From: Corallococcus sp.
GTDB taxonomy: Bacteria; Bacillota; Clostridia; Christensenellales; CAG-314
Reading direction: 5' to 3'
DNA: 64,000 nucleotides
Assembly: GCA_023667435.1 (NCBI GenBank)
Contig: JAMPAB010000002.1
Span: 41,180-105,179, forward strand
Below the pieces are notes generated by a model that saw nothing but the letters and a program-made list of their open reading frames with translations, had not been told where the DNA came from and made no database searches. Shown here piece by piece: positions 519 through 37,972 of the stretch; within the stretch, counting starts at the first letter, position 1; each line of letters starts with the position of its first letter. The position numbers were made by a program, and so were the translations under genes.

Positions 519-547
519 TTGACAATATATCAAATATATTTTATTAT
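519..547 (+). promoter_or_regulatory. sigma-A type promoter for the giant adhesin gene
   Basis: TTGACA (519-524), 17-nt spacer, TATTAT (542-547). GGAG at 590-593 lies 8 nt before ATG 602. Confidence 0.55.
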
Positions 548-601
548 TAGAAAGATATAAAGTTTTATTTTATATTATTACACATTTTTGGAGAACGAAT
601 T

Positions 602-787
602 ATGAAAAAACAAAAAATGATGACGCGAAAAATATCTTTGACGGTATTTTTTGCAACGGTTATCGCGCTTTGCATATTCGGACTTCTCCTCACTCAAATT
701 ATTTACGGGGATACGCTTGTTATGGGCGAAACTGCTAACGCAAGCGATACCCCCCCCGTCACGAAACTGCGGTTGAGTACGTTATAG
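602..787 (+). CDS. signal-peptide / N-terminal segment of the giant adhesin, separated from the body by a frameshift in a C8 tract
   Basis: ATG 602 has an SD. MKKQKMMTRKISLTVFFATVIALCIFGLLL reads as a basic n-region plus hydrophobic core. The frame ends at TAG 785-787, 28 nt after the C8 run. The body ORF frame opens at 739. Confidence 0.7.
   Translation: MKKQKMMTRKISLTVFFATVIALCIFGLLLTQIIYGDTLVMGETANASDTPPVTKLRLSTL
750..757 (+). repeat. C8 homopolymer at the junction of the two adhesin reading frames
   Basis: Direct count gives c750-c757. The frame-2 and frame-1 ORFs overlap only across 739-787. C9 or C6 would fuse them. The tract also forms the heptamer C_CCC_CCC in the upstream frame. 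Confidence 0.95.
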
Positions 788-894
788 GCGACCGTTCCGT
801 TTCGGGAGAATATGAGGAGATTTCCAAAACGGAATACCGCTACAAAGACCTTGCAAACGGTTACAACGCGGCGATTGCAAAGGCTTTCGAACTG

Positions 895-3800
895 TTGAGC
901 CAAAGCGACAGCGACAACAAATACGTGCGCGTTACGCTTGCAGATGACTGGACGGCTTCGCAGACGAATCTCGAAGGATGGACTTCGTTCGGAAGCGGAG
1001 AGGGCTTTTCGTCGGGAAGAATATTCGTACCGTACGACGCGAATATCGTGCTGGACTTAAACGGAAAAATCGTCAACCGTGATTTAAGCGAGTATTACGG
1101 AAAGAACCCCAACGGCAGCGTATTGTACGTAGAAGGCAACCTGATTGTCGAGGACGGCGCGCCTGCTGTCACACATACGATTGCCGGTTATCGTTACGAT
1201 TGGGACGAGGGGTACACCGTCTTCGATTCCGAAACCGTTAACGGCGGAGTTATTACCGGAGGCAAAGCAGCAACCGGCGGAGGAATAAACGTGGCCGATT
1301 ACGGTACGCTTACGCTGTGCGGAGGCAACGTATTCGGCAACTGCAGCACGGGCAACGGCGGAGGAATAGCGCTCGGCGATTACTGTTCGTTCGTAATGGA
1401 CGGCGGTAAAATTTGGTACAACAGCGCAGAACAGGGAGACAGAAACAACGGCGGAGGAATAAGCGCCGAATACTGCCGCATTATTATCAACGGCGGAACA
1501 ATTTCAAATAACTACGCCGATTCACGCGGCGGAGGAATTTATTCGTCCGCAAACGGTTCCAGCGAGGGATTCGATGAGACCGGCGCTGCCGCGTTCGCGA
1601 TTTACGGAGGCGAAATATCCGAGAACATATCCTCTGCCGAAGGAAGCGGTATTTACTACTCCCAAAACACCTGCATGATCGTCGGCGGATCCCTAGAATA
1701 TAATACGAGCCAGCGCAATTGGGCGGTGTACGGTTCGGGCGATTTGTACGTAGGCGGCAATGCCCGCATTGACAATAATAACTCTGATGAAGGGTATGGG
1801 GAAGAGTATATTTACGATTCCAACATAGGCTTGGCAACGGGCTGCTGCTTGCGCGTTACGGGCAGTTTTGAAGAAGGCGCGTTTTTTGCCGTATCCGACC
1901 CGACAATAGAGATTGTCAATTACGACAACTACGGCTATTCGTACGGTTCGGAAGAAACCGACGAGAACGGCAATCCGGTTGCGCAGCGCAATATCGACGA
2001 AGACGGACATCCCATCGATCCGACAACGTTTTTCGAGTACGACGAATACGACGGAATAAAATATAATATAACCCGCGTACAAAACGGCGCAGGCACGAGT
2101 TTGCCTCAGGCCTATTCGGGAACGCTGCGCGCTACAACCTACAACGTCATATGGTATCTATATCAGACGAACGAGGAAGGAACAGACGTGTCGAAAGTTA
2201 CTTACGGCAATCAATGTTACGAATCGGACAAAAACGCAACGGTAATACGTTATCCCGTTACAGAATACGGTACTTGGGAAAACAGATACAGAACGGGTAT
2301 TATGGCGAAAGTACTCGACGAAAACGACAACATAATAAACACGCTGGAGGCGGAAGTATACTATCCTTATCAAGGCACTCCCCGCAATTACGCGCCGTTT
2401 ACCACCTCCCACAACGACACATTGGAAACGGATCACCCGTACTCCGTAAGAATAAAGGTAAACGAAGAATACCTGTGGGTATCTCTCGATATTTACGCGA
2501 CGTCGATAGCGGACGCTGAGGTAACGGCGGAGATTCACGAAGATGCGAGATACTATCGGCTGGACGAAAATCTAAATGGGCGAATAAGCCTTACTGAAAA
2601 TGATTTCGATATAACGGTAACATTGAAGGACGGAACGGAGCTTACAAAAGGCGAGCATTATACCGTCAGTCTACCCAATCCGGATCCGAACGTCTACGAA
2701 AAGTTTTACGTTGAAATAAAGGGCATAAATACTTATAGCGGCACAAAGTCGTCAAACCTATTGTCTCTCGAAACAAACGAAAATCTCGAGTGTTATTTTG
2801 ACTACTGGCAAATTATAACTTACAATACCGATACAGAAAACATAGAGCGTACAAATTCCGAAACCAATCCGCATGTGATTGATTACGACTTCTACTATGC
2901 CGAAGAACAGCTGCTGGGAAGAAACTTTGCAAAAGACTTGAACGCTCACTGTTACTACAAAGTTGCCAATGCCGACGCTGACGACAATAGAAAATATGCC
3001 GCCAACGTATATTTTAATGCCGCTTCGGAAAACGGGGTCGCATTCGATATTTACAAGAAAGTCGAAGGAAAATGGACGCTTCTCGACGGCAACGAAATAA
3101 TAGGCATCGGCGAATATAAAATAGAACTTAGCACAAACAAGGTTTCTACCCCAAATGCGATGATTAGAGAAACTACTTTCAAACCGTTTTATCTAACCGT
3201 TAACCCGCTTGAGATAGATTCAGTATTATCCGTCGTCGATGGCGACAAAGGAGGATCAGGCGCGAAACTTAACGACGCGCTGAAGATATACTACAACGGC
3301 GACAACCTCGCCGACGTGTTGAAAAAGGATGACGCTTACATCAGTAACGGAGTAACGACGGTGTTGACGGAAGACGGCGATACCGTATACGTTTACTACA
3401 ACGGCAACAAAATGAACGTCAAAATAAGCGACAGCTTGGAGATCCAAAGACTTCCGTATAGGGAAGACGGCGAATGGCAGTACAAATGGTTACTTGTCAA
3501 AGATATCGGCAAAGCGTATATTACTCACAGCATAGGAGACGAAACGGGTATTGCCGGCGAGTCGGAAACCCTAACGCTAATCACCACAACGGTCAGAATA
3601 GAATTTGAGAACTTTATATTTGAGGTGCAACGCGAAGTCGAAGTAGAAAATGACGGCGAAGTTACAGTCGAAACCGTAACCGAATACGTAAACTACTTAG
3701 AAACGACGTTTAACTGGGCGATAGTAACTGCCTGCAACAACGTTCTCGGCGAGGACGATAAAGCGTATACGCCCGTAAAAAACGGCGGAGAAACGCCTAA

Positions 3801-6800
3801 AATAGAATACGGCGACGCGATCGACGTACCCAAAGCGCGCTACGGCGACGGAGTGATACTGCGCATTACAAAAGCCGACAACATTGACGAAAAATTCGTA
3901 GCGGTAGACGTATACGGTGCGACAGCGCTGTACGGTTACAGCGAAACGGCCGAAGGCAACTTGGGCGACAAAATCGGCAAAACGTTCGACGAATACGTTG
4001 CGGAGATTATCCGTAAAGGCGGCACGGGAAATTACAAACTTTACGCGCAGACGGCGGACTACACCGACAACGCAACGGGAATTAAGTATGTTTCCGCCGT
4101 ACAGGAATACGCTTTTACCGTTACCGCGCGCAATATCGGAAAGGAAGGAGAGGACATCAGAATAACCGTAACAGGCGAATACTCTTATACGGGCAGCCAA
4201 ATAACACCCGACGTTTACGTCTTAATAGACGGCATACCGTGCAAAGCAGGAGTCGACTACACCGTTTCTTACGGCGAAAACCTACTTGCGGGAACGAAAA
4301 CCGGCAGCATCACCGTAAATGGCACAGGCGTATATGAGGGAGAAAAGACGGTAGAGTTCGATATAGCGAAAGCCGCCAACAAGTGGACGATACTGAGTAT
4401 GTCCGTGTGGAATCACAATGCGTATAACGCGGACGAACACATTATAATATCCTACGCGCCCGTCGGACGCGACAGCGCGACGTACAAAATAGAAAAGTTC
4501 GAAGACAAACAGTGGAAATCGGTTGCAGGGCTGGAAGCTTTCAAAATAGACGCGAAAGGCAAGATCATAGACGATCAAGAAGGCGCAATCACCGACGCGC
4601 TTAACGGACTTCGCGACAAAAACAGACTTATCGCAACGATTGCAGAAAGCGACAACTACTACGGAGACACGACGGACTTCGAATTCGACATAGAAGCGCT
4701 GCAATCCTCTTACGCCGCGCCGCAGCTTATGCACTTGACGACGGGCGCAGGCAAGAACGACGTTTATACGGGACATATCCTGTCGATAGGTATTCAAAAC
4801 TACAATCCTACGGGAATGAAAGCGGAATTGGACGACGGACTTACGCTCGAAGGCAACGTACTGTACGCAACCGACGCGGGAACGTACACGGTAACGATTA
4901 CGCTGACGGGCGAGGACAGCGTTTGGAGCGACGGTTACGAAGGAGTAAGCCGAACGTTCACGTGGACTGTAAACAAACAAAAGGTTACCATACCCGCTTA
5001 CGGAGTTCGTTTACTTACGTACAACGGACAGGCGCAAACATATTTACCCGCAGGATTTGACTCGGCGACGATGGAAATATCCGAAAATACGGGAACGAAT
5101 GCGGACACGTACACCGCTGTTATAAAGTTGAAAGATACCGACAACTACGAGTGGGCAAATAACGCACAGGGAGAAATTCCGTACGAATTCGAAATAAAAC
5201 AAGCAAACAACGAGTGGACTGCGCTGAGCATCACGGAATGGTACAGCAAACACTACGACGCGGCAGTCAACAGAATAGCAGCATCTGCGGCGTTCGGTTA
5301 CGCGCAGGCGACGTACAAAATAGAAACGTACGTCGGCGGAAGATGGACGGCGGTTGAAGACCTGAACGGATTCAAAATCGACGCGAACGGCAAAATCATA
5401 GACGACAAAAACGGCAAAATTACCGACGCTCTGAACAAACTTCGCGGACAGTACAGACTTACCGCAGCTATTGCGGAAAGCGACAACTTTACGGAAGCGA
5501 CCGATAGTTTCGAGTTTGAAATCGAAGTGCTGTTGACAACCTACGCAACGCCCCGTCTGCTGCTTTTGACGACGGGCGCAGGCAAAAACAACGCTTACAC
5601 GGGGCACGAACTGTCTATCGGCATACAGAACTTGAACCTTGAAGGAATGGATATCGAACTGAGCGCAAAGAACGGATTTTCGCGCGTAGGCGGTACGCTG
5701 TACGCAACCGAAGCGGGAACGTACACGGTAACAATCGAGCTGTCGAACGAGGACAGCGTTTGGAGCAACGGTACGTCAAACGCGATAACGTTGGAGTGGG
5801 TAATAAGAAAACAAACGGTTGCCGCGCCCGCTTACGGAGAAACGGTACTTACGTACACAGGAAGCGAGCAAACTTACTTGCCCGAAGGGTTCGACGATTC
5901 CGTTATGGAAATATCCGAAAATACGGGAACGAACGTAGCTCGGTACACGGCAACGATAAGTCTTAAAGACCCCGACAACTACGAATGGAGTTCCAACCCC
6001 GACGCTGCTGCGCGTTCGTACGTATTCGACATAACGAAAGCCATGAACCGCTACACCACTCTGAGCATAGCGACGTGGTATTACCGCGATTACAATCCCG
6101 ACGTCAACAGAATAGTTTTCGACGCGGCGTTCGGTCTTGTACAGGCAACGTACAAAATAGAAAAGTACGTTGACGAAACCTGGACGGACGTTGAAGGTTT
6201 GGAAGACTTTAAGCTTGATGCGGACGGCAACGTTATAGACGAGGGCGGCAAGATTGCCGAAATATTGAACGGACTTCGCGGCAAATACAGACTTACCGCC
6301 GTAATAGAAGGAAACGACAATTACAGCGAAATAACCGCAACTTCTTACGAATTCAGTATCGTAATTCTGCCTACGAAGTACGACACGCCCGAACTTATGT
6401 ATCTGACGGCGGGCATAGGCAAAAACGACGTTTACACGGGACACGTTCTGTCGATAAGTATTCAGAACTTTAACATTGCCGGAATGGATATCGACCTGAG
6501 CGAGGGACTGACGATCGAAGGAAACGTGCTATACGCGACGAACGCGGGCACCTATACCGCTACGATTACTCTGTTGAGCGACGACAGCGAATGGGGCGAC
6601 GGACTGGGCGGAAACAGCAGAACGTTTACCTGGACGATCGGCAAAATAAAAGTTGCCGTGCCCGATTACGGAACGACGAAGCTTTCGTACAACGGAAGCG
6701 AACAGACGTACCTGCCGAAAGGGTTTGACGCGGCGACAATGGAAATATCCGACAATACGGGAACGGACGCCGACACGTACACGGCGAAAGTAAGACTTAA

Positions 6801-7092
6801 AGACCCCGTCAATTACGAGTGGGATAACCCCGACTACGGCGTGGAAATCCCCTATCAATTCGAAATAGAAAGCGCGACAAGGTTGTTTATAACGATCGTG
6901 TGCATACTTGCCGCCGCTGCGGCGGTTGCCGCGTTTGCCGCGCTTGCGCAATGGCTGATGCACAGACAACGCTTGAAAGTATTCGCAATGGCGAACGAAA
7001 CGGATAGCGACGAGAACGACGGCGAAGACGTTGACGGTGAAGAAGAAAACGAAAACGACGTTGAAGAACACGACGAAGGAGGTAACGAGTAA
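895..7092 (+). CDS. giant surface adhesin-like protein body (2,065 aa as tracked; frame open from 739)
   Basis: The N-terminal third has repeated GGGI/GGG-type turns (ATGGGINV, NGGGIALGD, NNGGGISAEY, SRGGGIYS, GSGIYYS), typical of PMP-like right-handed beta-helices. Three ~277-aa tandem repeats follow. A C-terminal TM helix (LFITIVCILAAAAAVAAFAALAQWL) is followed by a poly-acidic tail. The tracked start is a TTG without an SD. Confidence 0.9.
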   Translation: MSQSDSDNKYVRVTLADDWTASQTNLEGWTSFGSGEGFSSGRIFVPYDANIVLDLNGKIVNRDLSEYYGKNPNGSVLYVEGNLIVEDGAPAVTHTIAGYRYDWDEGYTVFDSETVNGGVITGGKAATGGGINVADYGTLTLCGGNVFGNCSTGNGGGIALGDYCSFVMDGGKIWYNSAEQGDRNNGGGISAEYCRIIINGGTISNNYADSRGGGIYSSANGSSEGFDETGAAAFAIYGGEISENISSAEGSGIYYSQNTCMIVGGSLEYNTSQRNWAVYGSGDLYVGGNARIDNNNSDEGYGEEYIYDSNIGLATGCCLRVTGSFEEGAFFAVSDPTIEIVNYDNYGYSYGSEETDENGNPVAQRNIDEDGHPIDPTTFFEYDEYDGIKYNITRVQNGAGTSLPQAYSGTLRATTYNVIWYLYQTNEEGTDVSKVTYGNQCYESDKNATVIRYPVTEYGTWENRYRTGIMAKVLDENDNIINTLEAEVYYPYQGTPRNYAPFTTSHNDTLETDHPYSVRIKVNEEYLWVSLDIYATSIADAEVTAEIHEDARYYRLDENLNGRISLTENDFDITVTLKDGTELTKGEHYTVSLPNPDPNVYEKFYVEIKGINTYSGTKSSNLLSLETNENLECYFDYWQIITYNTDTENIERTNSETNPHVIDYDFYYAEEQLLGRNFAKDLNAHCYYKVANADADDNRKYAANVYFNAASENGVAFDIYKKVEGKWTLLDGNEIIGIGEYKIELSTNKVSTPNAMIRETTFKPFYLTVNPLEIDSVLSVVDGDKGGSGAKLNDALKIYYNGDNLADVLKKDDAYISNGVTTVLTEDGDTVYVYYNGNKMNVKISDSLEIQRLPYREDGEWQYKWLLVKDIGKAYITHSIGDETGIAGESETLTLITTTVRIEFENFIFEVQREVEVENDGEVTVETVTEYVNYLETTFNWAIVTACNNVLGEDDKAYTPVKNGGETPKIEYGDAIDVPKARYGDGVILRITKADNIDEKFVAVDVYGATALYGYSETAEGNLGDKIGKTFDEYVAEIIRKGGTGNYKLYAQTADYTDNATGIKYVSAVQEYAFTVTARNIGKEGEDIRITVTGEYSYTGSQITPDVYVLIDGIPCKAGVDYTVSYGENLLAGTKTGSITVNGTGVYEGEKTVEFDIAKAANKWTILSMSVWNHNAYNADEHIIISYAPVGRDSATYKIEKFEDKQWKSVAGLEAFKIDAKGKIIDDQEGAITDALNGLRDKNRLIATIAESDNYYGDTTDFEFDIEALQSSYAAPQLMHLTTGAGKNDVYTGHILSIGIQNYNPTGMKAELDDGLTLEGNVLYATDAGTYTVTITLTGEDSVWSDGYEGVSRTFTWTVNKQKVTIPAYGVRLLTYNGQAQTYLPAGFDSATMEISENTGTNADTYTAVIKLKDTDNYEWANNAQGEIPYEFEIKQANNEWTALSITEWYSKHYDAAVNRIAASAAFGYAQATYKIETYVGGRWTAVEDLNGFKIDANGKIIDDKNGKITDALNKLRGQYRLTAAIAESDNFTEATDSFEFEIEVLLTTYATPRLLLLTTGAGKNNAYTGHELSIGIQNLNLEGMDIELSAKNGFSRVGGTLYATEAGTYTVTIELSNEDSVWSNGTSNAITLEWVIRKQTVAAPAYGETVLTYTGSEQTYLPEGFDDSVMEISENTGTNVARYTATISLKDPDNYEWSSNPDAAARSYVFDITKAMNRYTTLSIATWYYRDYNPDVNRIVFDAAFGLVQATYKIEKYVDETWTDVEGLEDFKLDADGNVIDEGGKIAEILNGLRGKYRLTAVIEGNDNYSEITATSYEFSIVILPTKYDTPELMYLTAGIGKNDVYTGHVLSISIQNFNIAGMDIDLSEGLTIEGNVLYATNAGTYTATITLLSDDSEWGDGLGGNSRTFTWTIGKIKVAVPDYGTTKLSYNGSEQTYLPKGFDAATMEISDNTGTDADTYTAKVRLKDPVNYEWDNPDYGVEIPYQFEIESATRLFITIVCILAAAAAVAAFAALAQWLMHRQRLKVFAMANETDSDENDGEDVDGEEENENDVEEHDEGGNE
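4375..6870 (+). repeat. three in-frame tandem repeats of ~0.83 kb inside the adhesin gene
   Basis: Units start at about 4375 (ANKWTILS), 5203 (ANNEWTALS) and 6040 (AMNRYTTLS). Periods are 828 and 837 nt. The protein units are clearly homologous (…ATYKIE.…W..V.GLE.FK.DA.GKIIDD… GAGKN.VYTGH.LSIGIQN… TYLP.GFD..TMEISENTGT…). Confidence 0.85.
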
Positions 7093-8030
7093 TGAACGCA
7101 TTTAATTTACTTGCCGGAATATTTTATCCGTGGCAAACGACGGTAATTGCAGTCGTATCGCTTGTAATAGCGGGATTTATCGTCTTAAACGTTTACTTCG
7201 CGTTCAAATTCCGCATTGCCGCCGAACGCAAAATGTTCGATGACGAATTGCAGGGCAAGCGCGACGCGCTTATGGCAAGATTGAACTACCTGTACGCAGG
7301 CGGAGAGGCAGACAAACACGACTGGATGTTCTTCCTTAATTCCGAAGACGACGAGGAGGAAACTGCGGCGACCGAAACGGTTGCGGCGGAAGAAGGCAAA
7401 CAGCCCATGAATACGGTGTTGCTGCGCGTAGACGATTTGCAGCCGCGCGTACGCTTGAAGTTGGGTATGCGCGCAAAACGTTTCGACGGCAAATGCTTTT
7501 ACGTACGTTACCGCTTCGGGTTCGACGCGAAGCTGCGCTTTGCAGACGACGAAACGAAGGAAAGATACGTTCAAATTATGGACAACTTCCGCTCGTACGA
7601 AGGAGTTTCCATCGAAAAGAGCTTTGCCTCGCAACGCGTTATGTTAGGCAAGACAATGCTTGCTTCGGTTACTTTTGCGGGACAGCGTATGTGCGTAGGC
7701 TTTGCGGTAGAACCGACCGAAGAATACACTACGGGACAATATCGCGGCGAGGACAAATCGGACAAGAAACGCTTTGCAAAAACGCCCGTAGTAGTACGTA
7801 TACTAAGCGGCGAAAACAAGACGGAAGCCGTAAGAAGACTGTTTGCAAAAATTGCGGAAAAGAACGGTATCGTTCGCGGCGAAACGAAGAAATACGTTTA
7901 CGACCTTGACGTACGCACGCAGGAACAGCTGATTGTGTCGGGCGCGGTGAAAGTTATAATAGTCGCCGACGCTCCGAACGAAACGGCAACGGCAAACGCC
8001 GCGCAAACGGCGCAAGTCGCGGCGGAATAG
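7092..8030 (+). CDS. hypothetical membrane-anchored protein, translationally coupled to the adhesin gene
   Basis: ATG 7092 overlaps the adhesin stop (TAATG). It has an N-terminal TM helix (TTVIAVVSLVIAGFIVLNVYFAFKF), an acidic linker and then a ~200-aa domain with no motif I recognise. Confidence 0.7.
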   Translation: MNAFNLLAGIFYPWQTTVIAVVSLVIAGFIVLNVYFAFKFRIAAERKMFDDELQGKRDALMARLNYLYAGGEADKHDWMFFLNSEDDEEETAATETVAAEEGKQPMNTVLLRVDDLQPRVRLKLGMRAKRFDGKCFYVRYRFGFDAKLRFADDETKERYVQIMDNFRSYEGVSIEKSFASQRVMLGKTMLASVTFAGQRMCVGFAVEPTEEYTTGQYRGEDKSDKKRFAKTPVVVRILSGENKTEAVRRLFAKIAEKNGIVRGETKKYVYDLDVRTQEQLIVSGAVKVIIVADAPNETATANAAQTAQVAAE

Positions 8031-8419: not shown

Positions 8420-8589
8420 TTAGAACGTACGCGGACGGTTTTTTTTTGCAACACCGAATTGTCAACGCGATACGAAGTAATAAAAGGCAGATAAACTCGT
8501 TTAAAACTGTTTAGTCGTTTATGATAAAAAACGCTTTTTCGATAAATTAAACACGTAGTCGTTTGTGAAACCGCTTGCCGCAACGGAAA

Positions 8590-9084
8590 TCACTCGAAAA
8601 GTTTATTGTAAATTTCTTCGGCGACTTGAATGGAAGTTTTGCCGTCGGTAGAGACTATTACGTCGGCATAACGCGAATAATACGCGCTGCGTTCCGCAAT
8701 TATCGCTTCTATTTCGTTTGCATTAAGTCCGTCGAAAAGAGGGCGCGGAGAATCTCCCAAACGGCAAAGAACGGAGTCCGCCGTCACCGTCAGCCACACT
8801 ACCGTAGCGTTACGGGCAAAGGAAGCGAAACCGTCGGATAACACGCTGCCGCCACCGCAGGAAATAACGACGTCGTTTACGTCTTGCAAACTGCTTAAAA
8901 CAACGCTTTCCGTTTTGCGGAACTCCGCTTCGCCCGACGTTTCGAATATTTCCGATATACTGCGTTTTGCCGTGCGTTCCGCTTCTTTGTCTACGTCTAT
9001 ATGTTTAAGCCTCAGTTTGTCCGACAAAAGCGCGCCGACCGTAGATTTGTAGGAACACGCAAAACCTATCAAAATTATTTTCAT
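8590..9084 (-). CDS. aroK: shikimate kinase (atypical P-loop)
   Basis: Size (164 aa), operon context and overall AroK-like sequence (MKIILIGF....KSTVG..L...L, CGGGSV) support the call. The P-loop reads GFACSYKST rather than GFMGxGKST. Confidence 0.8.
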   Translation of the reverse strand: MKIILIGFACSYKSTVGALLSDKLRLKHIDVDKEAERTAKRSISEIFETSGEAEFRKTESVVLSSLQDVNDVVISCGGGSVLSDGFASFARNATVVWLTVTADSVLCRLGDSPRPLFDGLNANEIEAIIAERSAYYSRYADVIVSTDGKTSIQVAEEIYNKLFE

Positions 9085-9515
9085 TTTTTATCCTTGACAG
9101 AATTCACCGCAAAGTCAACCGCTTCGAAATAGCTTTCTATGCCCTTGCCGTAAAAATACCCCGCGCATACGTCTTTAAGTACGTCCGTTTTGCGGAAATC
9201 TTCGCGCGAATAAATATCCGACATATGAACTTCAATAACGGGGACGTCGATACATTCGATGCAATCGCGCAAAGCGTAGCTGTAATGGCTGTACGCGCCG
9301 GCGTTAAATATCACGGCGTCGCACTTCGTCTGCTGCAATATTTCCACAAGACGTCCTTCGTAATTGCTATGCACCGTTACCGTCTTTACGTCTTTTTCCT
9401 TAGCGTAAGCGGCAACCTTTTTTTCTAAAACGTCCAGAGTGTCTTTGCCGTAGCAGTCGGGATTACGCCGTCCCAGCATATTCATATTAACGCCGTTAAG
9501 TAACAGTATTTTCAT
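9081..9515 (-). CDS. aroQ: type II 3-dehydroquinate dehydratase
   Basis: MKILLLNGVNMNMLGRRNPDCYG... is an AroQ-type N-terminus. Length 144 aa. Its stop overlaps the aroK start (ATGA). Confidence 0.9.
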   Translation of the reverse strand: MKILLLNGVNMNMLGRRNPDCYGKDTLDVLEKKVAAYAKEKDVKTVTVHSNYEGRLVEILQQTKCDAVIFNAGAYSHYSYALRDCIECIDVPVIEVHMSDIYSREDFRKTDVLKDVCAGYFYGKGIESYFEAVDFAVNSVKDKK

Positions 9516-9573: not shown

Positions 9574-11565
9574 TTACCTCGAAATCGACTGATTGTATTT
9601 TTCCAGAAATTTTACGAAACCGCCGTAGTCGTTACAAATAGGCGTTCCCGTCCACAGCGAAAAGCTTTTTGCGCCCTGATGATACAGCATTTCCAAACCG
9701 TCCACGTACTTGATATTGCGGCGCAGTGCTTGATTTCTTATTCCGCTTTTTCCCTTATACGCCGCGACAAAAGCGAACTTCGTACTTTCGGGCAGGACGA
9801 TATTCTGCTCGAATTCGCATTCGGGCACAAACGACAGCACTCCGTAAGGCGCATCAACCCCCTGTAAACCGTACTTTTCCGTAAGCAACCGCGCTTTTTC
9901 TTCCGTGCGGTTTATGATCTTCATTTTGCAACCGTATTGCTTCAATACGGAAATACATTCTTCGGCTGCTCCGCCCGCGCCTACTATCCACAGAGACTTT
10001 CCGTAAAAATCCACTCCGTTGTTTTCAAGAGCTTGCACCAAACCGTATCCGTCGGTCGATTGCGGAAGGACGTTTTTTCCTACTGTGTTGACGGAAGGCG
10101 ACGCGCCGTTCAACAATTCCGCCACGCGCCGCTTAAACGGCATCGTAACGTTCAATCCGTCGAAGCGGTCGATAACGTTTAACAACTCTGCGTCGGCTAT
10201 ATCGCGCGGAAGCGTTACCGTATCGTAGCTGCAGCAAACGTCGCAACGTTCGGATAAGTACCCCATAAGATAAGGCGACATGCTAAGAGCGACCGACGAA
10301 CCTATAAGTCCCAGTTTTAGCGGACGTATTCCGAACGCTTCCGAAAATTCGGGGAACGACACCGCAAACGGAGTTTCGTCGATAATGCCTCCGCCGCAAA
10401 CAAACGAAATAACCGCCTCGCACATAGCTATGCGGTGATCTCCGAAACTTTTAAACGCAGGATGCTTTGCAACGTTTCCGTCGGATATTACGGTAAGATT
10501 CTCTCCGTCGAAAACCGCGTCGCTGCCGCATTGTTTCGCCATATGGATTATCGCGGATATTCTGTTACATTCCTTGTATTGCAACTCGGAAACGCCGCAA
10601 AACACGTGTCTGCCTTCGATTGTAAAAGCGATAACGGCAAGCAGAGGTATCTCGTCGATTGCGTCGCAAACGTCCGCCGCAGACGCGTACAGCGGCTTCA
10701 AATCGCTTTTGCCTACCGTTATATCGCCTACCGTCTCGCCTAAAACGTGCCTTACGTTTTCGAATCGGATATTTACGCCGCTCCCCGCAAGCACCCGCAA
10801 AAATCCCGCTCGCCGTTCGTTGAGCAATACGTTACGGCAAATCAACGTTCTTTTAGACATAACCGCCGCGCCGATTTGATACGCTACGGACGATATGTCC
10901 GCAGGCAACGTGATATCGAGCGGAGAAACGTCGCTTTTTCGTACCGTTACCGACAAACCGTCGACGACGATATCGGCGTTGAGAGATGCCAGCATAAGCT
11001 CGGTATGATTTCGGGTGGCGATTTTTTCCGTATAAGACGTTTCTCCTTCGGCAAACAGACCCGCAATTAAAACGGCGCTTTTTACCTGCGCCGAATCGAC
11101 TTCGGCGCGTATTGCCGCTCCCGAAAGCTTTCCGCCCAGACTTTCAAACAGAAAACCGTCGCCCGTTGCGAACTTTGCGCCAAGCTTTTCCAACGGCTTC
11201 AAAACGCGGTCCATAGGACGTTTGCAAAGAGACTCGTCTCCGACGAATTTTGCACGAACGCCCAACCCCGCGACGAGTCCCGCGAGCAGTCGCGCTGAGG
11301 TGCCGCTGTTTTTACAGTCTAAAACGACGTTGTCGCAGGGGGATGATATGGGAGTTACTTTCGCTGCGGAACCGTCGATAAATATTTCCGCCCCTAATTT
11401 GCGCAGACATTCGGCTGTGGCAAGCACGTCGTCGCAAACGGAAATGTTGCGTATAACGCTGTTTCCCTTTGCAATGGCGGCAAATATCAGAGCGCGGTGA
11501 GACATAGATTTGTCGCCGCGCGCTACGTTGGTATTTATATCGAATTGTCCGTTTAATCTAAGCAT
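9574..11565 (-). CDS. aroA: fused EPSP synthase (N-terminal ~415 aa) / shikimate dehydrogenase (C-terminal ~245 aa)
   Basis: The N-terminus has GDKSMSHRALIFAA, the AroA KS.SHR motif. The C-terminal part has LGLIGSSVALSMSPYLMGYL, NVTMPFK and VGAGGAA, which are AroE substrate and Rossmann motifs. It is a single uninterrupted 663-aa ORF. Confidence 0.85.
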   Translation of the reverse strand: MLRLNGQFDINTNVARGDKSMSHRALIFAAIAKGNSVIRNISVCDDVLATAECLRKLGAEIFIDGSAAKVTPISSPCDNVVLDCKNSGTSARLLAGLVAGLGVRAKFVGDESLCKRPMDRVLKPLEKLGAKFATGDGFLFESLGGKLSGAAIRAEVDSAQVKSAVLIAGLFAEGETSYTEKIATRNHTELMLASLNADIVVDGLSVTVRKSDVSPLDITLPADISSVAYQIGAAVMSKRTLICRNVLLNERRAGFLRVLAGSGVNIRFENVRHVLGETVGDITVGKSDLKPLYASAADVCDAIDEIPLLAVIAFTIEGRHVFCGVSELQYKECNRISAIIHMAKQCGSDAVFDGENLTVISDGNVAKHPAFKSFGDHRIAMCEAVISFVCGGGIIDETPFAVSFPEFSEAFGIRPLKLGLIGSSVALSMSPYLMGYLSERCDVCCSYDTVTLPRDIADAELLNVIDRFDGLNVTMPFKRRVAELLNGASPSVNTVGKNVLPQSTDGYGLVQALENNGVDFYGKSLWIVGAGGAAEECISVLKQYGCKMKIINRTEEKARLLTEKYGLQGVDAPYGVLSFVPECEFEQNIVLPESTKFAFVAAYKGKSGIRNQALRRNIKYVDGLEMLYHQGAKSFSLWTGTPICNDYGGFVKFLEKYNQSISR

Positions 11566-14942: not shown

Positions 14943-14953
14943 CCCCCCCCCCC
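14943..14953 (-). repeat. G11 (C11 on + strand) tract in the SD position of the MBL gene
   Basis: Minus strand reads GAAC-G11-AAGCTATTT-ATG(14933). No other SD-like element lies between the upstream stop (14980) and the ATG. Confidence 0.95.
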
Positions 14954-16884: not shown

Positions 16885-16895
16885 CCCCCCCCCCC
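16885..16895 (-). repeat. G11 (C11 on + strand) tract filling the 20-nt gap between the patatin stop and the MBL start
   Basis: Minus strand reads TAA-CGT-G11-CGTGCT-ATG(16878). The tract is the only SD-like sequence in the gap. Confidence 0.95.
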
Positions 16896-17871: not shown

Positions 17872-18330
17872 TTATTCCTGAGCGCTCGCGGAAGGAACTT
17901 CCTCGTTTGCCTTAGCGGCGTTTCTGAGTTGAATTGCGCCCACCAAATACAACACGGGGATAACCAAACCCAACAAAGCGGAGAACCATTGTCCGTAAAT
18001 GATGTCCATTATCGCCCCTATACCGCATACTACGATAACTACAATCGCCGTAATAAAGCAAGCCTTAGAGGACTTCTGCATAACGCCGATTACGCCTGCG
18101 GCAATGTAAGCAGCGGCATCGATAAGGTATACGACGCCCAGAATGATTATCATAAGACGCACAGCCGCTTCTATCGTTGCCGCATCCGCGCCCGAATCTT
18201 CGATCGCGCCGCCGATAATTCCCGAAACAAGGTCTCCCGCCGCGAAGAAAATCAACGCCATAAGGGCAAGAAAAGCGCCGCAGACAATCATTAAAATACT
18301 GGATACTTTAAGTAATTTGTTCTTTTCCAT
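17872..18330 (-). CDS. small polytopic membrane protein (about 4 TM), unknown function
   Basis: AAAGGAG lies 7 nt before the ATG. Four hydrophobic segments. It has its own promoter and terminator. Confidence 0.75.
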   Translation of the reverse strand: MEKNKLLKVSSILMIVCGAFLALMALIFFAAGDLVSGIIGGAIEDSGADAATIEAAVRLMIIILGVVYLIDAAAYIAAGVIGVMQKSSKACFITAIVVIVVCGIGAIMDIIYGQWFSALLGLVIPVLYLVGAIQLRNAAKANEEVPSASAQE

Positions 18331-18366: not shown

Positions 18367-18396
18367 AGTATACCCCCCCCCGTATGCAAAAGTCAA
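18367..18396 (-). promoter_or_regulatory. sigma-A promoter whose spacer contains a G9 tract
   Basis: Minus strand reads TTGACT (18396-18391), then TTTGCATAC + G9 (an 18-nt spacer; G9 = 18381-18373), then TATACT (18372-18367). The ATG at 18330 lies ~37 nt further downstream. Confidence 0.65.
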
Positions 18397-23377: not shown

Positions 23378-26300
23378 ATGAAAGTTGAAACAAGACGAGT
23401 ATCCGTTGCGATACTGAGCGTAGTTTGCGCGCTATTTTTGATACTGGGCGTAACGCTGTTCGACACGAACAACGCTTTTCAGACGTATGCCGAAAGTGCG
23501 GAACAAATTACGTCTACATACTACTACGACCATCTTAAAAACTTAAACGGTAGCGACTACGCTATGGCAAAAGAGTTTTACGACATTTTAGACGAGTTGA
23601 ATACGACGGGCGACTTTAAAGACGGCGTAATCAACAAGGAATTAAGCGAGGTTTTGACGCCCGCAGAAATTGCAAGCTGGGTAGAAAACGGAAATCTCGA
23701 TATCCCCAAAGCGTTCGGCGCGGCAAGGGATTCCTATTACTACGATCACCCCGAATTGTTCTACGTGGATTTGTACAAACTCACGCTTAGCGCGGGACGC
23801 GTAAACGGAACGTACGTCGCGTACCTCGACTGCGGCACGGAAGCAGACTGCTATATGGATAACGGAGCTTTGACAAGCGAAACGGCCGTTAACAACGCAA
23901 TCGCTGCTTACGAGCAGAAAATCCAAACAATCGTAACCTACGTCAAGACGAGCGCCGCGCAAAACTCTTTCGGCACCGCGCAAGATATGCTGTGGGCAAA
24001 TTACGCTAACGAATACATTGCGGGACACGTCGAATACGACTACGAAGCATTAACTGCTGCAAACGCTTCCGAAAATTACAGCAAACCTTATATAGGCAAC
24101 GCTTACGGCGCGCTTATCGAAGGGAAATGCGTATGCAGCGGTTACTCGTTTGCGTATAAAGCAGTTATGGACGCATTGGATATTCCCTGCGTAATAGTAA
24201 GCGGAATAAGCATTGACAAAAGTACCGACGGCGTTACCGACAAAGGCGAAGCGCACAGTTGGAACTACGTTTGGCTGCAAGTTCCGCAGGACGACAACGT
24301 TGCAGAGGCGGTTGCTCTTGCGGATACGGCAACAGCGAAGAATTGCGCCTGGTACGCTTACGACGTTACGTGGAACAGTACCGGTTCGGACACCTCCGCT
24401 TACGTTAACATGAGCGCGTACACGGCAAGCGTAAATCATTTGGCAGATCCCGTCATATCCACGTCGGGATACAATATGCCTTACCCTGAACTGTCCGCCT
24501 ATAATTACGGCGCGGCAACGGTAGAAAGCGACTTTTACCACAGCAGCGCGTATACTCCCTACGGCAACGAAACGGACAACAGCGGCAATCCTCTTATGCA
24601 ATACGTTACGTACGTCAGTTACAAAGGCAAAGGCGCTATCGCTCTGTTGGAAGACGGACTGCACATTGTTTACCGTCATTATGCTTACAACGACGACACA
24701 AACGAAATGTATTGGACGGCATGGTGCGATATAGGCAATATGTACAAGGATACACTGGGAATGACAGAGGAAGACGAAGGAAATCAAACGTACGCGCCCA
24801 TAGCCTACAACTGCATGTATACGCAATTTGCGGTGGTAGATATCGAACCCGATATCAACTACAATCCTGACGATAAAATTCTCACAACTTCTCACACGAA
24901 TTTCTATTACAGCAAGGACAATGCGGATTTCGGCGAACACACTGTATACATTTCTCCGTTGTACACAAACAAAGCTTTCGGAACGTACACCGCCGCGCCT
25001 TACGTTGTAAGCACTACTCCGCGCCATACGGGAGTTGTAACGATCAACGACTCGATGGGCGACGGAACGGGATCGGTTGCCGACAGCAAAGCGTTTGAAA
25101 TCAGCGTGACTTACGACGAAAACCTGCACGTTTTGGACAGCAGCAAACCTATCGGCATCGAATTCGTTTCGAGCTTTGCGAATATCGATAGATACGCGGG
25201 ATTCGTCGCGTATGAAGACGGTTCGTACGTAAAAATCGTAAACGGCAACACGTTGACGTTTAAATTCAAACCCAGTCTTATGTACGAACACAACAGCGAG
25301 TTGTACTCTTTCTACTTCTCCAACGTAGGTTCGACCAAACTGATGCCTAACGGAAACACGTCCGACAAACTGCCCAATCCTGCGCACTTCCACTTTGCAA
25401 GAAGCTATATGCAGTGCCCGTTGATTTTGGGACACGGCAAACTTTGGATAGATTGCTGCGCGCAACCGACGCTTGTAAGCAACTCCGACCTTGCGGCGAT
25501 GGATTTCAAAGACCCCGACGGAAACTCAACGTTCTCCGAACAGGCGCGCAGTCAGATGATGCTCGTTGCCGAATCCGTCAAACCCGAAGTAGAGAGCGCG
25601 ATGCTTTCGGAAATCAACAAGAGCGGACTTAAAACAAAGGATATCAAAGCAAGCGAAACGTACGACATCAACCTGCAAATCTGCGGCAAATATCCCGTAA
25701 TACCCGACGGCAGTTACGTTAAAATAGCTCTCGGATTCCCCGAAGGTTACGGCCCCGAAGACGAAGGCGTCACATTTAAGCTGTATCACCGCAAACACGT
25801 TTCCGGCGATAAATATATCATAGAAGAAGTACCCTGCGTAGTAACGCAGTTAGGAATAGTAGCTACTGTTACAAGCTTCTCGCCTTACATGGTTGTAGCT
25901 GCCGACGCTAAGACGGTTTCGGCAAACAAGACAATTTACGCTACAATCGACGGAAAAGGCGGAACGCTCAGCCGCGAAGACGGAAAAGTTCAAACCTTAT
26001 CGGGGGGGGCGACGTATACTTACACCGTTACGCCCGATGAAGGATACGGCATTTACAAAGTAATGCTCAACGGACAAGACGTAACGAGCAGCGTTCAAAA
26101 CGGCAAACTGACCGTCGGTTACGACGATTTGCTCAACAACAACGAGCTTGTAATCAAGTATATTTCCGACGTTGCGGCGCAGCGTTACGCGGCGAACGAC
26201 TTTGAGATCGTAGACCCCGTTACCGTCGTCGTATCGACAAAGGGCGAAGCAAGCATAGCCAAACCGAGCGCAGAGTTGGCAATCAACACAATTACGCCTG

Positions 26301-26419
26301 CTCCCTCGAACAACGCCGCGATTATCGTTATCGTATGCGTGGCGGTTGCAGTTGTTGCTGCGGCGTGCATAGTTGCGTTTATCCTTATTAAACGCAAACG
26401 CAACAACGCGGAAAAATAA
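23378..26419 (+). CDS. large surface protein with a transglutaminase-like cysteine-protease core and a C-terminal TM anchor
   Basis: N-terminal signal/anchor. The core reads GKCVCSGYSFAYKAVMDALDIPCVIVSG ... GEAHSWNYVWL ... WYAYDVTWN (Cys-His-Asp pattern). The C-terminus is AAIIVIVCVAVAVVAAACIVAFILIKRKR. Confidence 0.85.
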   Translation: MKVETRRVSVAILSVVCALFLILGVTLFDTNNAFQTYAESAEQITSTYYYDHLKNLNGSDYAMAKEFYDILDELNTTGDFKDGVINKELSEVLTPAEIASWVENGNLDIPKAFGAARDSYYYDHPELFYVDLYKLTLSAGRVNGTYVAYLDCGTEADCYMDNGALTSETAVNNAIAAYEQKIQTIVTYVKTSAAQNSFGTAQDMLWANYANEYIAGHVEYDYEALTAANASENYSKPYIGNAYGALIEGKCVCSGYSFAYKAVMDALDIPCVIVSGISIDKSTDGVTDKGEAHSWNYVWLQVPQDDNVAEAVALADTATAKNCAWYAYDVTWNSTGSDTSAYVNMSAYTASVNHLADPVISTSGYNMPYPELSAYNYGAATVESDFYHSSAYTPYGNETDNSGNPLMQYVTYVSYKGKGAIALLEDGLHIVYRHYAYNDDTNEMYWTAWCDIGNMYKDTLGMTEEDEGNQTYAPIAYNCMYTQFAVVDIEPDINYNPDDKILTTSHTNFYYSKDNADFGEHTVYISPLYTNKAFGTYTAAPYVVSTTPRHTGVVTINDSMGDGTGSVADSKAFEISVTYDENLHVLDSSKPIGIEFVSSFANIDRYAGFVAYEDGSYVKIVNGNTLTFKFKPSLMYEHNSELYSFYFSNVGSTKLMPNGNTSDKLPNPAHFHFARSYMQCPLILGHGKLWIDCCAQPTLVSNSDLAAMDFKDPDGNSTFSEQARSQMMLVAESVKPEVESAMLSEINKSGLKTKDIKASETYDINLQICGKYPVIPDGSYVKIALGFPEGYGPEDEGVTFKLYHRKHVSGDKYIIEEVPCVVTQLGIVATVTSFSPYMVVAADAKTVSANKTIYATIDGKGGTLSREDGKVQTLSGGATYTYTVTPDEGYGIYKVMLNGQDVTSSVQNGKLTVGYDDLLNNNELVIKYISDVAAQRYAANDFEIVDPVTVVVSTKGEASIAKPSAELAINTITPAPSNNAAIIVIVCVAVAVVAAACIVAFILIKRKRNNAEK
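26002..26009 (+). repeat. in-frame G8 tract ~410 nt before the stop, upstream of the membrane anchor
   Basis: TTA TCG GGG GGG GCG reads LSGGA. Direct count gives g26002-g26009. Confidence 0.95.
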
Positions 26420-37921: not shown

Positions 37922-37954
37922 GTGTCGTTCTCATTTAGGGGACGGCACTTTTTT
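37922..37954 (+). terminator. intrinsic terminator inside the leader, 8 nt upstream of the SD (attenuator candidate)
   Basis: GUGUCGUUC (37922-37930) pairs with GGACGGCAC (37940-37948), 9 bp including two G-U pairs, with a 9-nt loop. It is followed by T6 (37949-37954), then GGAGG (37962-37966) and ATG 37973. Confidence 0.6.
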
Positions 37955-37972
37955 AATACTCGGAGGCAAACT

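What the first reader, a model, noticed from the sequence alone, without database searches (positions are those of the whole stretch)
739..787. A C8 tract uncouples the signal peptide from a 2,065-aa adhesin body (phase-variable OFF state, -1 slippery site, or homopolymer error)
ORF 602..787 (frame 2) encodes only a signal peptide plus about 30 residues. The 6.2-kb body is in frame 1, which opens at nt 739 after a TAA at 736-738. The two frames therefore overlap only across 739-787, around an uninterrupted C8 run at 750-757.

Reading frame 1 out of the tract gives ...DTPP/RHETAVEYVIGDRSVSGEYEEISKTEYRYKDLANGYNAAIAKAFELLSQSD... This is continuous with the tracked body, whose own start is a TTG with no SD. 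C9 or C6 would fuse everything into a secreted protein of about 2,163 aa.

In the upstream frame the tract is also an X_XXY_YYZ heptamer (C_CCC_CCC, 751-757). A -1 ribosomal slip there would give the same fusion product.
Basis: partly seen in the sequence, partly recalled or inferred. Interest (0 to 1): 0.7.

Follow-up and report, generated by a model that had tools for sequence, protein, structure and literature searches.

The report
Poly-C switch in giant surface-protein gene
A run of eight C's just after the signal peptide throws a 2,163-residue surface-protein gene of an uncultured gut Clostridia bacterium out of frame, and this is most likely the OFF state of an ordinary slipped-strand phase-variation switch, a well-known kind of mechanism.

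Summary
ATG 602 has a near-consensus promoter and a Shine-Dalgarno sequence. It opens a 61-codon ORF encoding a signal peptide. The 2,111-codon body lies in the -1 frame and has no start of its own. The two frames can only be joined inside 739-787, where the C8 run (750-757) sits; C9 gives one 2,163-aa protein.

Full-length homologues are single ORFs with the signal peptide fused to the same N-terminal domain. The body is intact and under purifying selection (dN/dS 0.33 against a second strain).

The tract is one of five G/C runs of 8 or more bases in 64 kb (0.15 expected; no runs of 7, one of 6), all at envelope-protein genes. In a 99.6%-identical strain, two of three sibling tracts differ in length. 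A related MAG has three giant genes with 5' G9 tracts, one out of frame.

There is no frameshift-stimulating RNA structure. Bifidobacterium breve bbr_1889a/b is an experimentally proven equivalent.

Best reading: a slipped-strand phase-variable contingency locus caught OFF (about 0.65). A homopolymer miscall (about 0.2), programmed recoding and recent pseudogenisation cannot be excluded without reads. It is a new member of a known kind, of moderate interest.

The parts
519..547 (+). Sigma-70-type promoter, TTGACA-17 nt-TATTAT, driving the leader and the whole gene
   Evidence: 11 of 12 consensus matches. It is the only strong + strand site in 300-1000.
590..593 (+). Shine-Dalgarno sequence GGAG, 8 nt upstream of ATG 602
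   Evidence: Read from the sequence.
602..787 (+). Leader ORF as it stands with C8 (61 aa). It comprises a basic n-region, a hydrophobic stretch of about 22 residues, IYG/D, a linker and Pro-Pro from the tract, then 9 out-of-frame codons and TAG.
   Evidence: The signal peptide is judged by eye and by colinear alignment with the signal peptides of homologues.
750..757 (+). C8 homopolymer, the proposed slipped-strand switch. C9 or C6 would be ON; C8 is OFF. It is also formally the heptamer C_CCC_CCC (751-757).
757..7092 (+). Body of the surface protein in frame 1 (2,111 codons plus stop). It comprises an N-terminal cap, a GGxI-repeat beta-helix-like region, a middle region, three repeats of about 278 aa, and a C-terminal transmembrane helix with an acidic tail.
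   Evidence: - Translation.
- No Pfam hit.
- Homologue consensus GGxIxxNxAxxxGGGVY.
- AlphaFold2 model confident over residues of about 90-340, made of short strands.
- 99.1% identity with no gaps to P0301 / L017 of a second strain.
- dN/dS 0.33.
7092..8030 (+). Downstream 312-aa protein with an N-terminal transmembrane segment. Its ATG overlaps the adhesin stop (TAATG) and it has its own GGAGG. It is probably co-transcribed, and so probably subject to polarity when the switch is OFF.
   Evidence: The same gene order is seen in L017. There is no Pfam or PHROG family hit. Co-regulation is inferred.
14943..14953 (-). Sibling tract: G11 on the coding strand, 9 nt upstream of ATG 14933 of a 465-aa MBL-fold membrane protein. 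It is G9 in the second strain.
16885..16895 (-). Sibling tract: G11, 6 nt upstream of ATG 16878 of a 632-aa Big_3 + MBL-fold protein, directly after the patatin stop codon. It is G10 in the second strain.
18373..18381 (-). Sibling tract: G9 inside a promoter spacer (TTGACT-18 nt-TATACT) upstream of a 152-aa membrane-protein gene. It is also G9 in the second strain.
26002..26009 (+). Sibling tract: G8 in frame (ON) inside a 1,013-aa transglutaminase-like surface protein with a signal peptide and a C-terminal transmembrane anchor.

Best explanation
The C8 run is a hypermutable homopolymeric tract, a contingency locus, placed just after the signal-peptide coding region of a single gene. That gene encodes a 2,163-aa membrane-anchored surface protein with a beta-helix region and repeat modules, probably an adhesin.

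Slipped-strand mispairing during replication changes the tract length. With C9 (or C6) ribosomes starting at ATG 602 read through and make the secreted, C-terminally anchored protein. With C8, as in this sequence, they terminate at TAG 785-787 after 61 codons. The body has no start or signal peptide of its own, so it is not made. Transcription of the 6.3-kb untranslated body and of the overlapping 312-aa gene is probably reduced by polarity.

Shown here:
- the anatomy of the locus;
- the single-gene nature of the two ORFs;
- the non-random occurrence of such tracts;
- their length polymorphism at sibling loci;
- selective constraint on the body.

Inferred:
- that this particular tract changes length at high frequency and reversibly;
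- that C8 is the true state of the sequenced population;
- the adhesin function;
- the polarity effect.
For: 1. **One gene.**
   - The promoter, Shine-Dalgarno sequence and ATG exist only for the leader.
   - Frame 1 has no start before TTG 895.
   - The full-length homologue P0307 (1,634 aa, 34% identity, E = 8e-37) aligns colinearly from its signal peptide across the junction into the same N-domain, and shares the C-terminal transmembrane / HRQRL-type tail.
   - P0002 and seven other homologues also start with a fused signal peptide.
2. **The tract class is non-random.** There are five G/C runs of 8 or more against 0.15 expected, none of length 7 and one of length 6. All five lie at genes for membrane or surface proteins, in positions typical of phase variation:
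   - a promoter spacer;
   - immediately 5' of two start codons;
   - the 5' coding region;
   - in frame inside another surface-protein gene.
3. **Tracts are length-polymorphic.** Against a same-species MAG contig (L016, 99.6% identity over 9.25 kb), 2 of the 3 indel events are G11->G10 and G11->G9 in these tracts.
4. **The same design recurs in relatives.**
   - L008 (a Christensenellaceae MAG) has three tandem giant surface-protein genes, each with a G9 at codons 11-13. One is out of frame with its 1,818-aa body.
   - L014 has TTGACA-atattc-G13-TATAAT.
5. **The gene is not decayed.** There are 2,111 open codons, no indels over 1,405 codons against strain 2, and dN/dS 0.33 (p = 0.012 against neutrality).
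6. **The assembly is not error-ridden.** 63 homopolymers of 6 or more bases lie in intact ORFs, and the housekeeping genes (shikimate operon, GlyRS) are intact.
7. **Experimental precedent.** B. breve UCC2003 bbr_1889a (65 aa, signal peptide) and bbr_1889b (2,674 aa) are separated by a G-tract. Expression is switched by replication slippage, with polarity on downstream genes (PMC9187656).
Against: - No reads and no second copy of this particular tract were available. The second strain's contig (L017) starts 2.1 kb downstream of it, and no other sequence of the 5' end exists in the collections searched. Variation at this locus is therefore not shown.
- Length differences between two assemblies at the sibling tracts could themselves be homopolymer miscalls.
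- Two sibling tracts (the G11s) sit where length changes have no obvious ON/OFF effect, so not every tract in the class is necessarily a switch.
- CCC is the commonest Pro codon here (197 of 501), so a CCC-CCC pair is not unusual in itself.
- The mismatch-repair status and mutation rate of this organism are unknown.
Confidence: 0.65

Rival explanations
1. Sequencing or assembly miscall. The true genome has C9 (or the population majority does), and the gene is simply intact in the organism. The frameshift is a consensus error at a G/C homopolymer.
For: - Homopolymers of 8 or more bases are the commonest residual error site in long-read assemblies and a known weak spot of all platforms.
- The only disruption in the window is at such a run.
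- The sibling tracts differ between two assemblies, which could equally be miscalls.
- The body is perfectly intact and under purifying selection.
Against: - 63 other homopolymers of 6 or more bases, including T8, A7 and G8 runs, lie in intact ORFs.
- An independent MAG of another species shows the same out-of-frame state at an equivalent 5' G9 in one of three giant genes.
- The proven B. breve case was also first taken for an annotation problem.
- Even if C9 is the true majority length, the tract would still be a candidate switch, so this rival concerns the phase and not the mechanism.
Confidence: 0.2
2. Programmed recoding. Either -1 ribosomal frameshifting on C_CCC_CCC or RNA-polymerase slippage on the C/G run makes a fixed fraction of full-length protein from the C8 allele.
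For: - The heptamer is in the correct frame, and a -1 shift gives the fusion product.
- C_CCC_CCC is listed among the efficient -1 motifs in E. coli when paired with a stimulator (PMC4066793).
- The out-of-frame L008 gene also needs a shift in the -1 direction.
Against: - There is no stimulatory structure. The 116 nt from the tract onward fold no better than shuffles (z = 0.34), and the only sizeable hairpin starts about 30 nt downstream.
- There is no SD-like element in the 26 nt before the heptamer.
- Without stimulators, heptamers give at most about 0.5% in E. coli.
- Homologues are single continuous ORFs without the tract, so neither the overlap nor the heptamer is conserved.
- In L008, two of three equivalent tracts are in frame, which fits a mutational switch and not an obligatory recoding site.
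- Low-level leak by either route may still occur.
Confidence: 0.07
3. Recent, effectively permanent inactivation. The gene is a young pseudogene that happens to have been hit at its most mutable site and is on its way to decay.
For: - The gene is strain- or species-specific, with no close homologue of the N-terminal 522 aa among 5.8 billion proteins.
- Large surface-protein genes turn over quickly. Synteny with relatives is broken exactly at such genes.
Against: - There are no further stops or indels in 6.3 kb.
- dN/dS is 0.33 against a second strain.
- The lesion sits in a reversible tract belonging to an over-represented class.
Confidence: 0.08

Closest known systems
Bifidobacterium breve UCC2003 bbr_1889a/bbr_1889b and bbr_0113a/b intragenic G-tract switch (Penno et al. 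2022, PMC9187656)
   Same: - Host is a Gram-positive gut commensal.
- A short upstream ORF (65 aa) carries the promoter, Shine-Dalgarno sequence, start codon and Sec signal.
- A giant body ORF (2,674 aa) follows, without a usable start or signal peptide.
- The two are separated by a homopolymeric G/C tract.
- In-frame tract lengths restore one surface protein.
- Downstream genes are affected by polarity.
   Different: - The B. breve genes are sortase-dependent pilins with LPXTG motifs in a sortase cluster. This protein has no LPXTG, ends in a transmembrane helix with an acidic tail, and has no sortase nearby.
- The host here is a Clostridia-class organism.
- Slippage is demonstrated there and only inferred here.
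Translational SSR phase variation of surface proteins in Neisseria, Haemophilus, Campylobacter and Helicobacter (poly-G/C contingency loci; for example HmbR/HpuAB PMC3786947, the Campylobacter phasome PMC6321876, H. pylori SabA PMC2715451)
   Same: - Poly-G/C tracts are about 8-13 nt long.
- They sit in the 5' coding region or the promoter spacer of surface-structure genes.
- There are several such loci per genome.
- The run-length distribution is bimodal.
- Tract length differs between strains.
   Different: Those are Gram-negative pathogens in which switching rates were measured. Here the host is an uncultured gut Firmicute related to Ca. Fimimonas, and nothing has been measured.
Chlamydial polymorphic membrane proteins (Pmp; Pfam PF02415 repeat) and other parallel beta-helix adhesins. 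My recollection that some pmp genes carry poly-G tracts is own knowledge and was not checked here.
   Same: - The N-terminal region shows GGxI / xxN repeat periodicity.
- Remote homologues carry PF02415.
- The model is built of short beta-strands.
   Different: - There is no PF02415 hit for this protein at E <= 0.01.
- There is no autotransporter beta-barrel; the protein has a C-terminal transmembrane anchor instead.
- No structure match is significant (best E = 0.068).
Bacterial -1 programmed frameshift sites (dnaX A_AAA_AAG; IS3/IS911 A_AAA_AAG)
   Same: An X_XXY_YYZ heptamer lies in the overlap between a short upstream frame and a long -1 frame.
   Different: - There is no stimulatory hairpin, pseudoknot or upstream SD-like element.
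- The overlap is not conserved in homologues.
- The upstream product alone (a signal peptide) has no plausible function.

Membership tests
SSR-mediated (slipped-strand) phase-variable contingency locus | Uninterrupted repeat tract long enough to be hypermutable (G/C homopolymer of about 7-8 bases or more) | tested here: met
   C8 at 750-757, uninterrupted.
SSR-mediated (slipped-strand) phase-variable contingency locus | The tract is placed so that +/-1 repeat unit toggles expression (5' coding region or core promoter), and the OFF product is short | tested here: met
   - The tract covers codons 50-52 of 2,163.
- C8 gives a 61-aa peptide; C9 or C6 gives the full protein.
- There is no alternative start before TTG 895.
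SSR-mediated (slipped-strand) phase-variable contingency locus | Such tracts are over-represented relative to base composition and stand apart from the background run-length distribution | tested here: met
   5 observed against 0.15-0.17 expected. Runs of 6-7 bases: 1 observed against 3.5-4.5 expected.
SSR-mediated (slipped-strand) phase-variable contingency locus | Tract length differs between strains, or within a population, at this locus | not testable with these tools
   - The second strain's contig begins at window position about 2817.
- No other copy of the 5' end was found.
- At sibling tracts the feature is met for 2 of 3 (G11/G10, G11/G9, G9/G9).
SSR-mediated (slipped-strand) phase-variable contingency locus | High-frequency, reversible ON/OFF switching of the phenotype | not testable with these tools
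   This needs cultures or deep error-corrected reads.
SSR-mediated (slipped-strand) phase-variable contingency locus | The interrupted gene is otherwise functional (intact and under constraint) | tested here: met
   - 2,111 open codons.
- 0 gaps over 1,405 codons against strain 2.
- dN/dS 0.33, p = 0.012.
Programmed -1 ribosomal frameshift site | X_XXY_YYZ slippery heptamer in the zero frame within the overlap | tested here: met
   C_CCC_CCC at 751-757, with codons CCC CCC at 752-757. The motif is shift-prone in E. coli with stimulators (PMC4066793).
Programmed -1 ribosomal frameshift site | Stimulatory element: a downstream hairpin or pseudoknot 5-9 nt after the heptamer, or an upstream SD-like sequence | tested here: not met
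   - Folding of 745-860 gives z = 0.34 against shuffles.
- Only a weak hairpin abuts the tract, and the larger one starts about 30 nt downstream.
- There is no GGAGG-like sequence upstream.
Programmed -1 ribosomal frameshift site | Conservation of the two-frame arrangement and heptamer among homologues | tested here: not met
   All eight homologues whose N-termini were read are single ORFs with a fused signal peptide and no Pro-Pro tract at the aligned position.
Pmp-type / parallel beta-helix adhesin (PF02415 Chlam_PMP repeat) | Significant match to the family profile | tested here: not met
   0 Pfam families at E <= 0.01 for both halves of the protein. Only remote homologues carry PF02415.
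Pmp-type / parallel beta-helix adhesin (PF02415 Chlam_PMP repeat) | Parallel beta-helix fold of the repeat region | tested here: inconclusive
   - The AlphaFold2 model has pLDDT of about 90 over residues of about 90-340, built of regular short strands.
- The top Foldseek PDB hits are beta-helix proteins (Ag43, pectate lyases, tailspikes), but none is significant; the best E is 0.068.
Pmp-type / parallel beta-helix adhesin (PF02415 Chlam_PMP repeat) | C-terminal autotransporter beta-barrel | tested here: not met
   The C-terminus is a single hydrophobic helix followed by HRQRLKVF and an acidic tail. The organism's relatives encode SpoIIID.

The most novel reading that the evidence does not exclude
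This uncultured gut Clostridia lineage (nearest named relative Ca. Fimimonas; Christensenellaceae-like MAGs) may run a dense poly-G/C 'phasome' acting at three levels: promoter spacer, immediately 5' of start codons, and intragenic. It would stochastically vary a repertoire of giant surface proteins.

The local tract density is 5 per 64 kb. By my own recollection, Campylobacter jejuni has roughly one per 60 kb. That would extend SSR contingency loci, so far documented mainly in Gram-negative pathogens, mycoplasmas and Bifidobacterium, to abundant commensal Firmicutes known only from metagenomes. It would also mean that MAG consensus sequences systematically mis-report the ON/OFF state of their adhesins.
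Probability: 0.4. Interest if true: 0.5.

Novelty: new member of a known kind. Interest (0 to 1): 0.35.

Why it matters
If the switch is real, it shows that an uncultured gut commensal varies a 2,163-aa surface protein stochastically. It probably varies several other envelope proteins in the same 64 kb as well. That bears on colonisation, immune or IgA evasion, and phage-receptor masking.

There is also a practical point. Automated annotation will call this locus a 61-aa hypothetical protein plus a 2,065-aa protein with a TTG start and no signal peptide, or a pseudogene. Recognising the tract restores the true gene. It also flags that homopolymer frameshifts in MAGs are not all errors.

The mechanism itself is textbook, so a specialist would not be surprised.

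Tried and rejected
**Looking for an orthologue carrying the tract**
- A word-indexed search of 5.8 billion proteins with the fused N-terminal 522 aa found only hits of 27-38% identity.
- Exact-sequence look-ups of the 61-aa leader, the 312-aa neighbour, AroK, AroQ and the upstream ORF were all 'not on record'.
- The genome-contig scan found only distant relatives matching the C-terminal half, residues 1132-2107.
- Two metagenome-contig scans, with the N-terminus and with AroA-AroE, found nothing.
- The same-species MAG GCA_023664405.1 was found through AroA-AroE (P0181). Its contigs stop short of the tract: L016 ends in aroA/E, and L017 starts at window position about 2817.

**Function**
- Pfam, NCBIfam and PHROGs gave nothing for the big protein or the 312-aa protein.
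- The Foldseek search of the PDB was not significant.
- The 312-aa protein is not related to the ORF that follows a giant gene in L008.

**Other tests**
- Codon-bias argument for a 'designed' tract: rejected, because CCC is the commonest Pro codon here.
- Rfam scan of the window: only one tRNA, and nothing at the locus.
- Idea that the G11 tracts could fuse neighbouring ORFs: rejected. The patatin stop codon precedes the tract, and no upstream start exists in the MBL frame.

Full report
**1. The observation**

The sequence is as described. An uninterrupted C8 occupies 750-757.

ORF 602..787 (ATG, frame 2) encodes 61 residues:
- a basic n-region (MKKQKMMTRK);
- a hydrophobic stretch of about 22 residues;
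- IYG/D, then a short linker ending Asp-Thr-Pro-Pro;
- nine out-of-frame codons and TAG.

Frame 1 is closed by TAA 736-738. It then stays open from 739 to 7092. Its first possible start is TTG 895, which has no Shine-Dalgarno sequence.

One extra C joins the two frames into a 2,163-aa protein reading ...ASDTPPRHETAVEY.... The codons in frame 2 are ACC CCC CCC GTC, so C_CCC_CCC (751-757) is formally a -1 slippery heptamer.

The only good expression signals belong to ATG 602. They are TTGACA-17 nt-TATTAT at 519-547 (11 of 12 consensus matches) and GGAG 8 nt before the ATG.

**2. Two ORFs or one gene?**

They are one gene. An exhaustive HMMER search with the first 1,200 body residues found family members. 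Their N-termini, read directly, all begin with a signal peptide fused to the same N-terminal domain.

The best full-length homologue is P0307 (1,634 aa).
- It aligns colinearly with the repaired protein from the signal peptide, across the junction, into the domain (34% identity, E = 8e-37).
- It has about 52 residues ahead of the conserved AVYRIG / AVEYVIG motif, the same as the window's leader.
- It ends in the same kind of transmembrane helix plus H(K/R)(Q/R)RL tail.

P0002 behaves the same way. The 46 codons between the tract and TTG 895 are therefore coding.

**3. What the protein is**

There is no Pfam or NCBIfam family for it.
- Remote homologues (27-38% identity) come from Clostridia MAGs, and some carry the Chlamydia-Pmp repeat PF02415.
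- The alignment consensus shows a GGxIxxNxAxxxGGGVY periodicity.
- An AlphaFold2 model of body residues 1-522 is confident (pLDDT about 90) over residues of about 90-340 and is made of regular short strands.
- Foldseek against the PDB gave no significant match. The top of the list is parallel beta-helix proteins such as Ag43, pectate lyases and tailspikes.
- The C-terminal half contains three repeats of about 278 aa, then a transmembrane helix and an acidic tail.

'Large membrane-anchored surface protein, probably an adhesin' is a fair label, but it is an inference.

A 312-aa gene for a protein with an N-terminal transmembrane segment overlaps the stop codon (TAATG). It has no family.

**4. 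The organism**

GlyRS is at most 89% identical to anything in the protein collection. The nearest named relative is Ca. Fimimonas merdipullorum at 83%.

Relatives encode SpoIIID, so this is a Clostridia-class Firmicute despite the odd NCBI lineage of Ca. Fimimonas. Distant relatives of the adhesin's C-terminal half (residues 1132-2107) come from Christensenellaceae and Clostridia gut MAGs.

One same-species MAG exists, GCA_023664405.1 'Firmicutes bacterium NC332'.

**5. Is the tract special?**

Yes. The window has five G/C runs of 8 or more:
- C8 at 750;
- C11 at 14943;
- C11 at 16885;
- C9 at 18373;
- G8 at 26002.

It has no run of 7 and a single run of 6. Markov models of order 1-3 predict 0.15-0.17 runs of 8 or more, and 3.5-4.5 runs of 6-7. 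Short runs are therefore depleted and long ones form a separate class.

All five sit at envelope-protein genes.

| Tract | Position relative to genes |
|---|---|
| C9 at 18373 (G9 on the coding strand) | Spacer of TTGACT-18 nt-TATACT, upstream of a 152-aa membrane-protein gene |
| C11 at 16885 and at 14943 (G11 on the coding strand) | 6 and 9 nt upstream of the ATGs of two MBL-fold envelope proteins |
| G8 at 26002 | In frame inside a 1,013-aa transglutaminase-like protein with a signal peptide and a C-terminal anchor |
| C8 at 750 | The tract of the finding, after the signal peptide of the adhesin gene |

**6. Are such tracts variable?**

Contig L016 of the second strain is 99.6% identical over 9.25 kb. 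It has only three indel events against the window. Two of them are in the tracts (G11 to G10, and G11 to G9), and the promoter G9 is unchanged.

This is what hypermutable tracts predict. Miscalls in one of the assemblies cannot be excluded.

**7. Does the design recur?**

Yes.
- L008 is a Christensenellaceae MAG whose giant proteins share only a repeat domain of about 100 aa with this one. It carries three tandem giant genes, each with a G9 at codons 11-13. Two are in frame. One is out of frame with its 1,818-aa body, and G10 or G7 would give 1,852 aa.
- L014, a relative with 89% GlyRS identity, has TTGACA-atattc-G13-TATAAT.
- The tract positions differ between lineages, and the homologues of the window protein lack the Pro-Pro tract. 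The tracts therefore look independently acquired.

**8. Is the gene alive?**

Yes.
- The body has 2,111 open codons.
- Against the second strain (L017 / P0301), 1,405 codons align without a gap at 99.1% identity.
- There are 11.5 synonymous and 13.5 non-synonymous differences, giving dN/dS 0.33 (p = 0.012 against neutrality).

**9. Assembly quality**

63 homopolymers of 6 or more bases lie inside intact ORFs. The shikimate operon, GlyRS and the other housekeeping genes are intact. Only the C8 breaks a gene.

**10. Recoding**

- The 116 nt from the tract onward fold no better than shuffles (z = 0.34).
- There is no upstream SD-like element.
- C_CCC_CCC is among the better -1 heptamers in E. coli, but only with a stimulator. 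Unstimulated heptamers give at most about 0.5% (PMC4066793).
- The two-frame layout is not conserved in homologues.

Programmed frameshifting is therefore unlikely, although a low-level leak is possible.

**11. Comparison with what is known**

The closest case is Bifidobacterium breve UCC2003. There a 65-aa ORF carrying the signal peptide (bbr_1889a) and a 2,674-aa body (bbr_1889b) are separated by a G-tract. Replication slippage restores the frame, pili appear, and downstream genes suffer polarity when the switch is OFF (PMC9187656).

The present locus has the same anatomy but differs in the protein class. It has no LPXTG motif or sortase, and it uses a transmembrane anchor. It also differs in host. 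More broadly, it matches the poly-G/C contingency loci of Neisseria, Haemophilus, Campylobacter and Helicobacter (papers listed).

**12. Verdict**

| Reading | Confidence |
|---|---|
| Slipped-strand phase-variable tract in a single giant surface-protein gene, recorded in the OFF phase | about 0.65 |
| Homopolymer miscall of an in-frame tract; this would change the phase, not the mechanism | about 0.2 |
| Programmed recoding | about 0.07 |
| Recent pseudogene | about 0.08 |

The switching itself is not shown. No reads and no second copy of this tract could be obtained.

This is a new member of a well-known kind. The interest is moderate. It lies mainly in the local density of tracts in an uncultured commensal Firmicute, and in the annotation lesson for MAGs.

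Noticed in passing
window 18373-18381 (- strand), promoter 18394-18367: G9 forms most of the 18-nt spacer of TTGACT...TATACT, upstream of a 152-aa membrane-protein gene (17872..18330). This is the classic layout for transcriptional phase variation or rheostat control. The tract has the same length (G9) in the second strain, L016.
   Followed up: partly
window 14943-14953 and 16885-16895 (- strand): Two G11 tracts sit 9 and 6 nt upstream of the ATGs of consecutive MBL-fold envelope-protein genes. No other Shine-Dalgarno sequence is present, so they may themselves serve as one. They are G9 and G10 in strain 2. What a length change would do here is unexplained.
   Followed up: partly
window 26002-26009 (+), inside 23378..26419: G8 lies in frame (encoding Gly-Gly) at about residue 875 of a 1,013-aa transglutaminase-like surface protein with a signal peptide and a C-terminal transmembrane anchor. 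A +/-1 change would remove the anchor, which might switch the protein between cell-bound and released forms.
   Followed up: no
L008 6426-6464, 12215-12256, 19681-19721: A Christensenellaceae MAG (CAJUJO010000017.1) has three tandem giant surface-protein genes, each with G9 at codons 11-13 before the signal-peptide core. The first is out of frame with its 1,818-aa body.
   Followed up: yes
L014 11576-11607: In the closest GlyRS relative (GCA_964607155.1), TTGACA-atattc-G13-TATAAT (a 19-nt spacer) lies just downstream of glyS. No obvious + strand gene lies within 500 nt, so its target is unknown.
   Followed up: partly
window 8439-8447; 18525: Other homopolymers also differ between the two strains. 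The intergenic T9 is T7 in L017, and an A6 is A5 in L016.
   Followed up: no
window 8590-9515 (aroK, aroQ): Divergence from strain 2 jumps to about 4% in aroK and aroQ, against 0.3-0.6% in the adhesin gene and in the 9.25 kb beyond aroA/E. This suggests a recombination patch. The MAG's contig break (L016 / L017) falls at its edge.
   Followed up: no
window 37922-42949, 53253-56894, 59079-63986, 23378-26419: The window is unusually rich in very large predicted surface proteins. These are two BspA-type LRR proteins of 1,675 and 1,213 aa, a 1,635-aa protein with no family, and the transglutaminase-like protein. They are interleaved with housekeeping genes, and synteny with relatives (L014, L015) breaks exactly at these genes.
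   Followed up: partly
window 9574-11565 (- strand): EPSP synthase and shikimate dehydrogenase are fused in one 663-aa protein (AroA-AroE). The fusion is widespread in this clade, with hundreds of homologues of the same length.
   Followed up: no
taxonomy: NCBI places Ca. Fimimonas in Myxococcaceae, and some related MAGs are labelled 'Corallococcus sp.'. Yet these genomes encode SpoIIID and cluster with Clostridia and Christensenellaceae MAGs, so the labels look like a mis-assignment.
   Followed up: no
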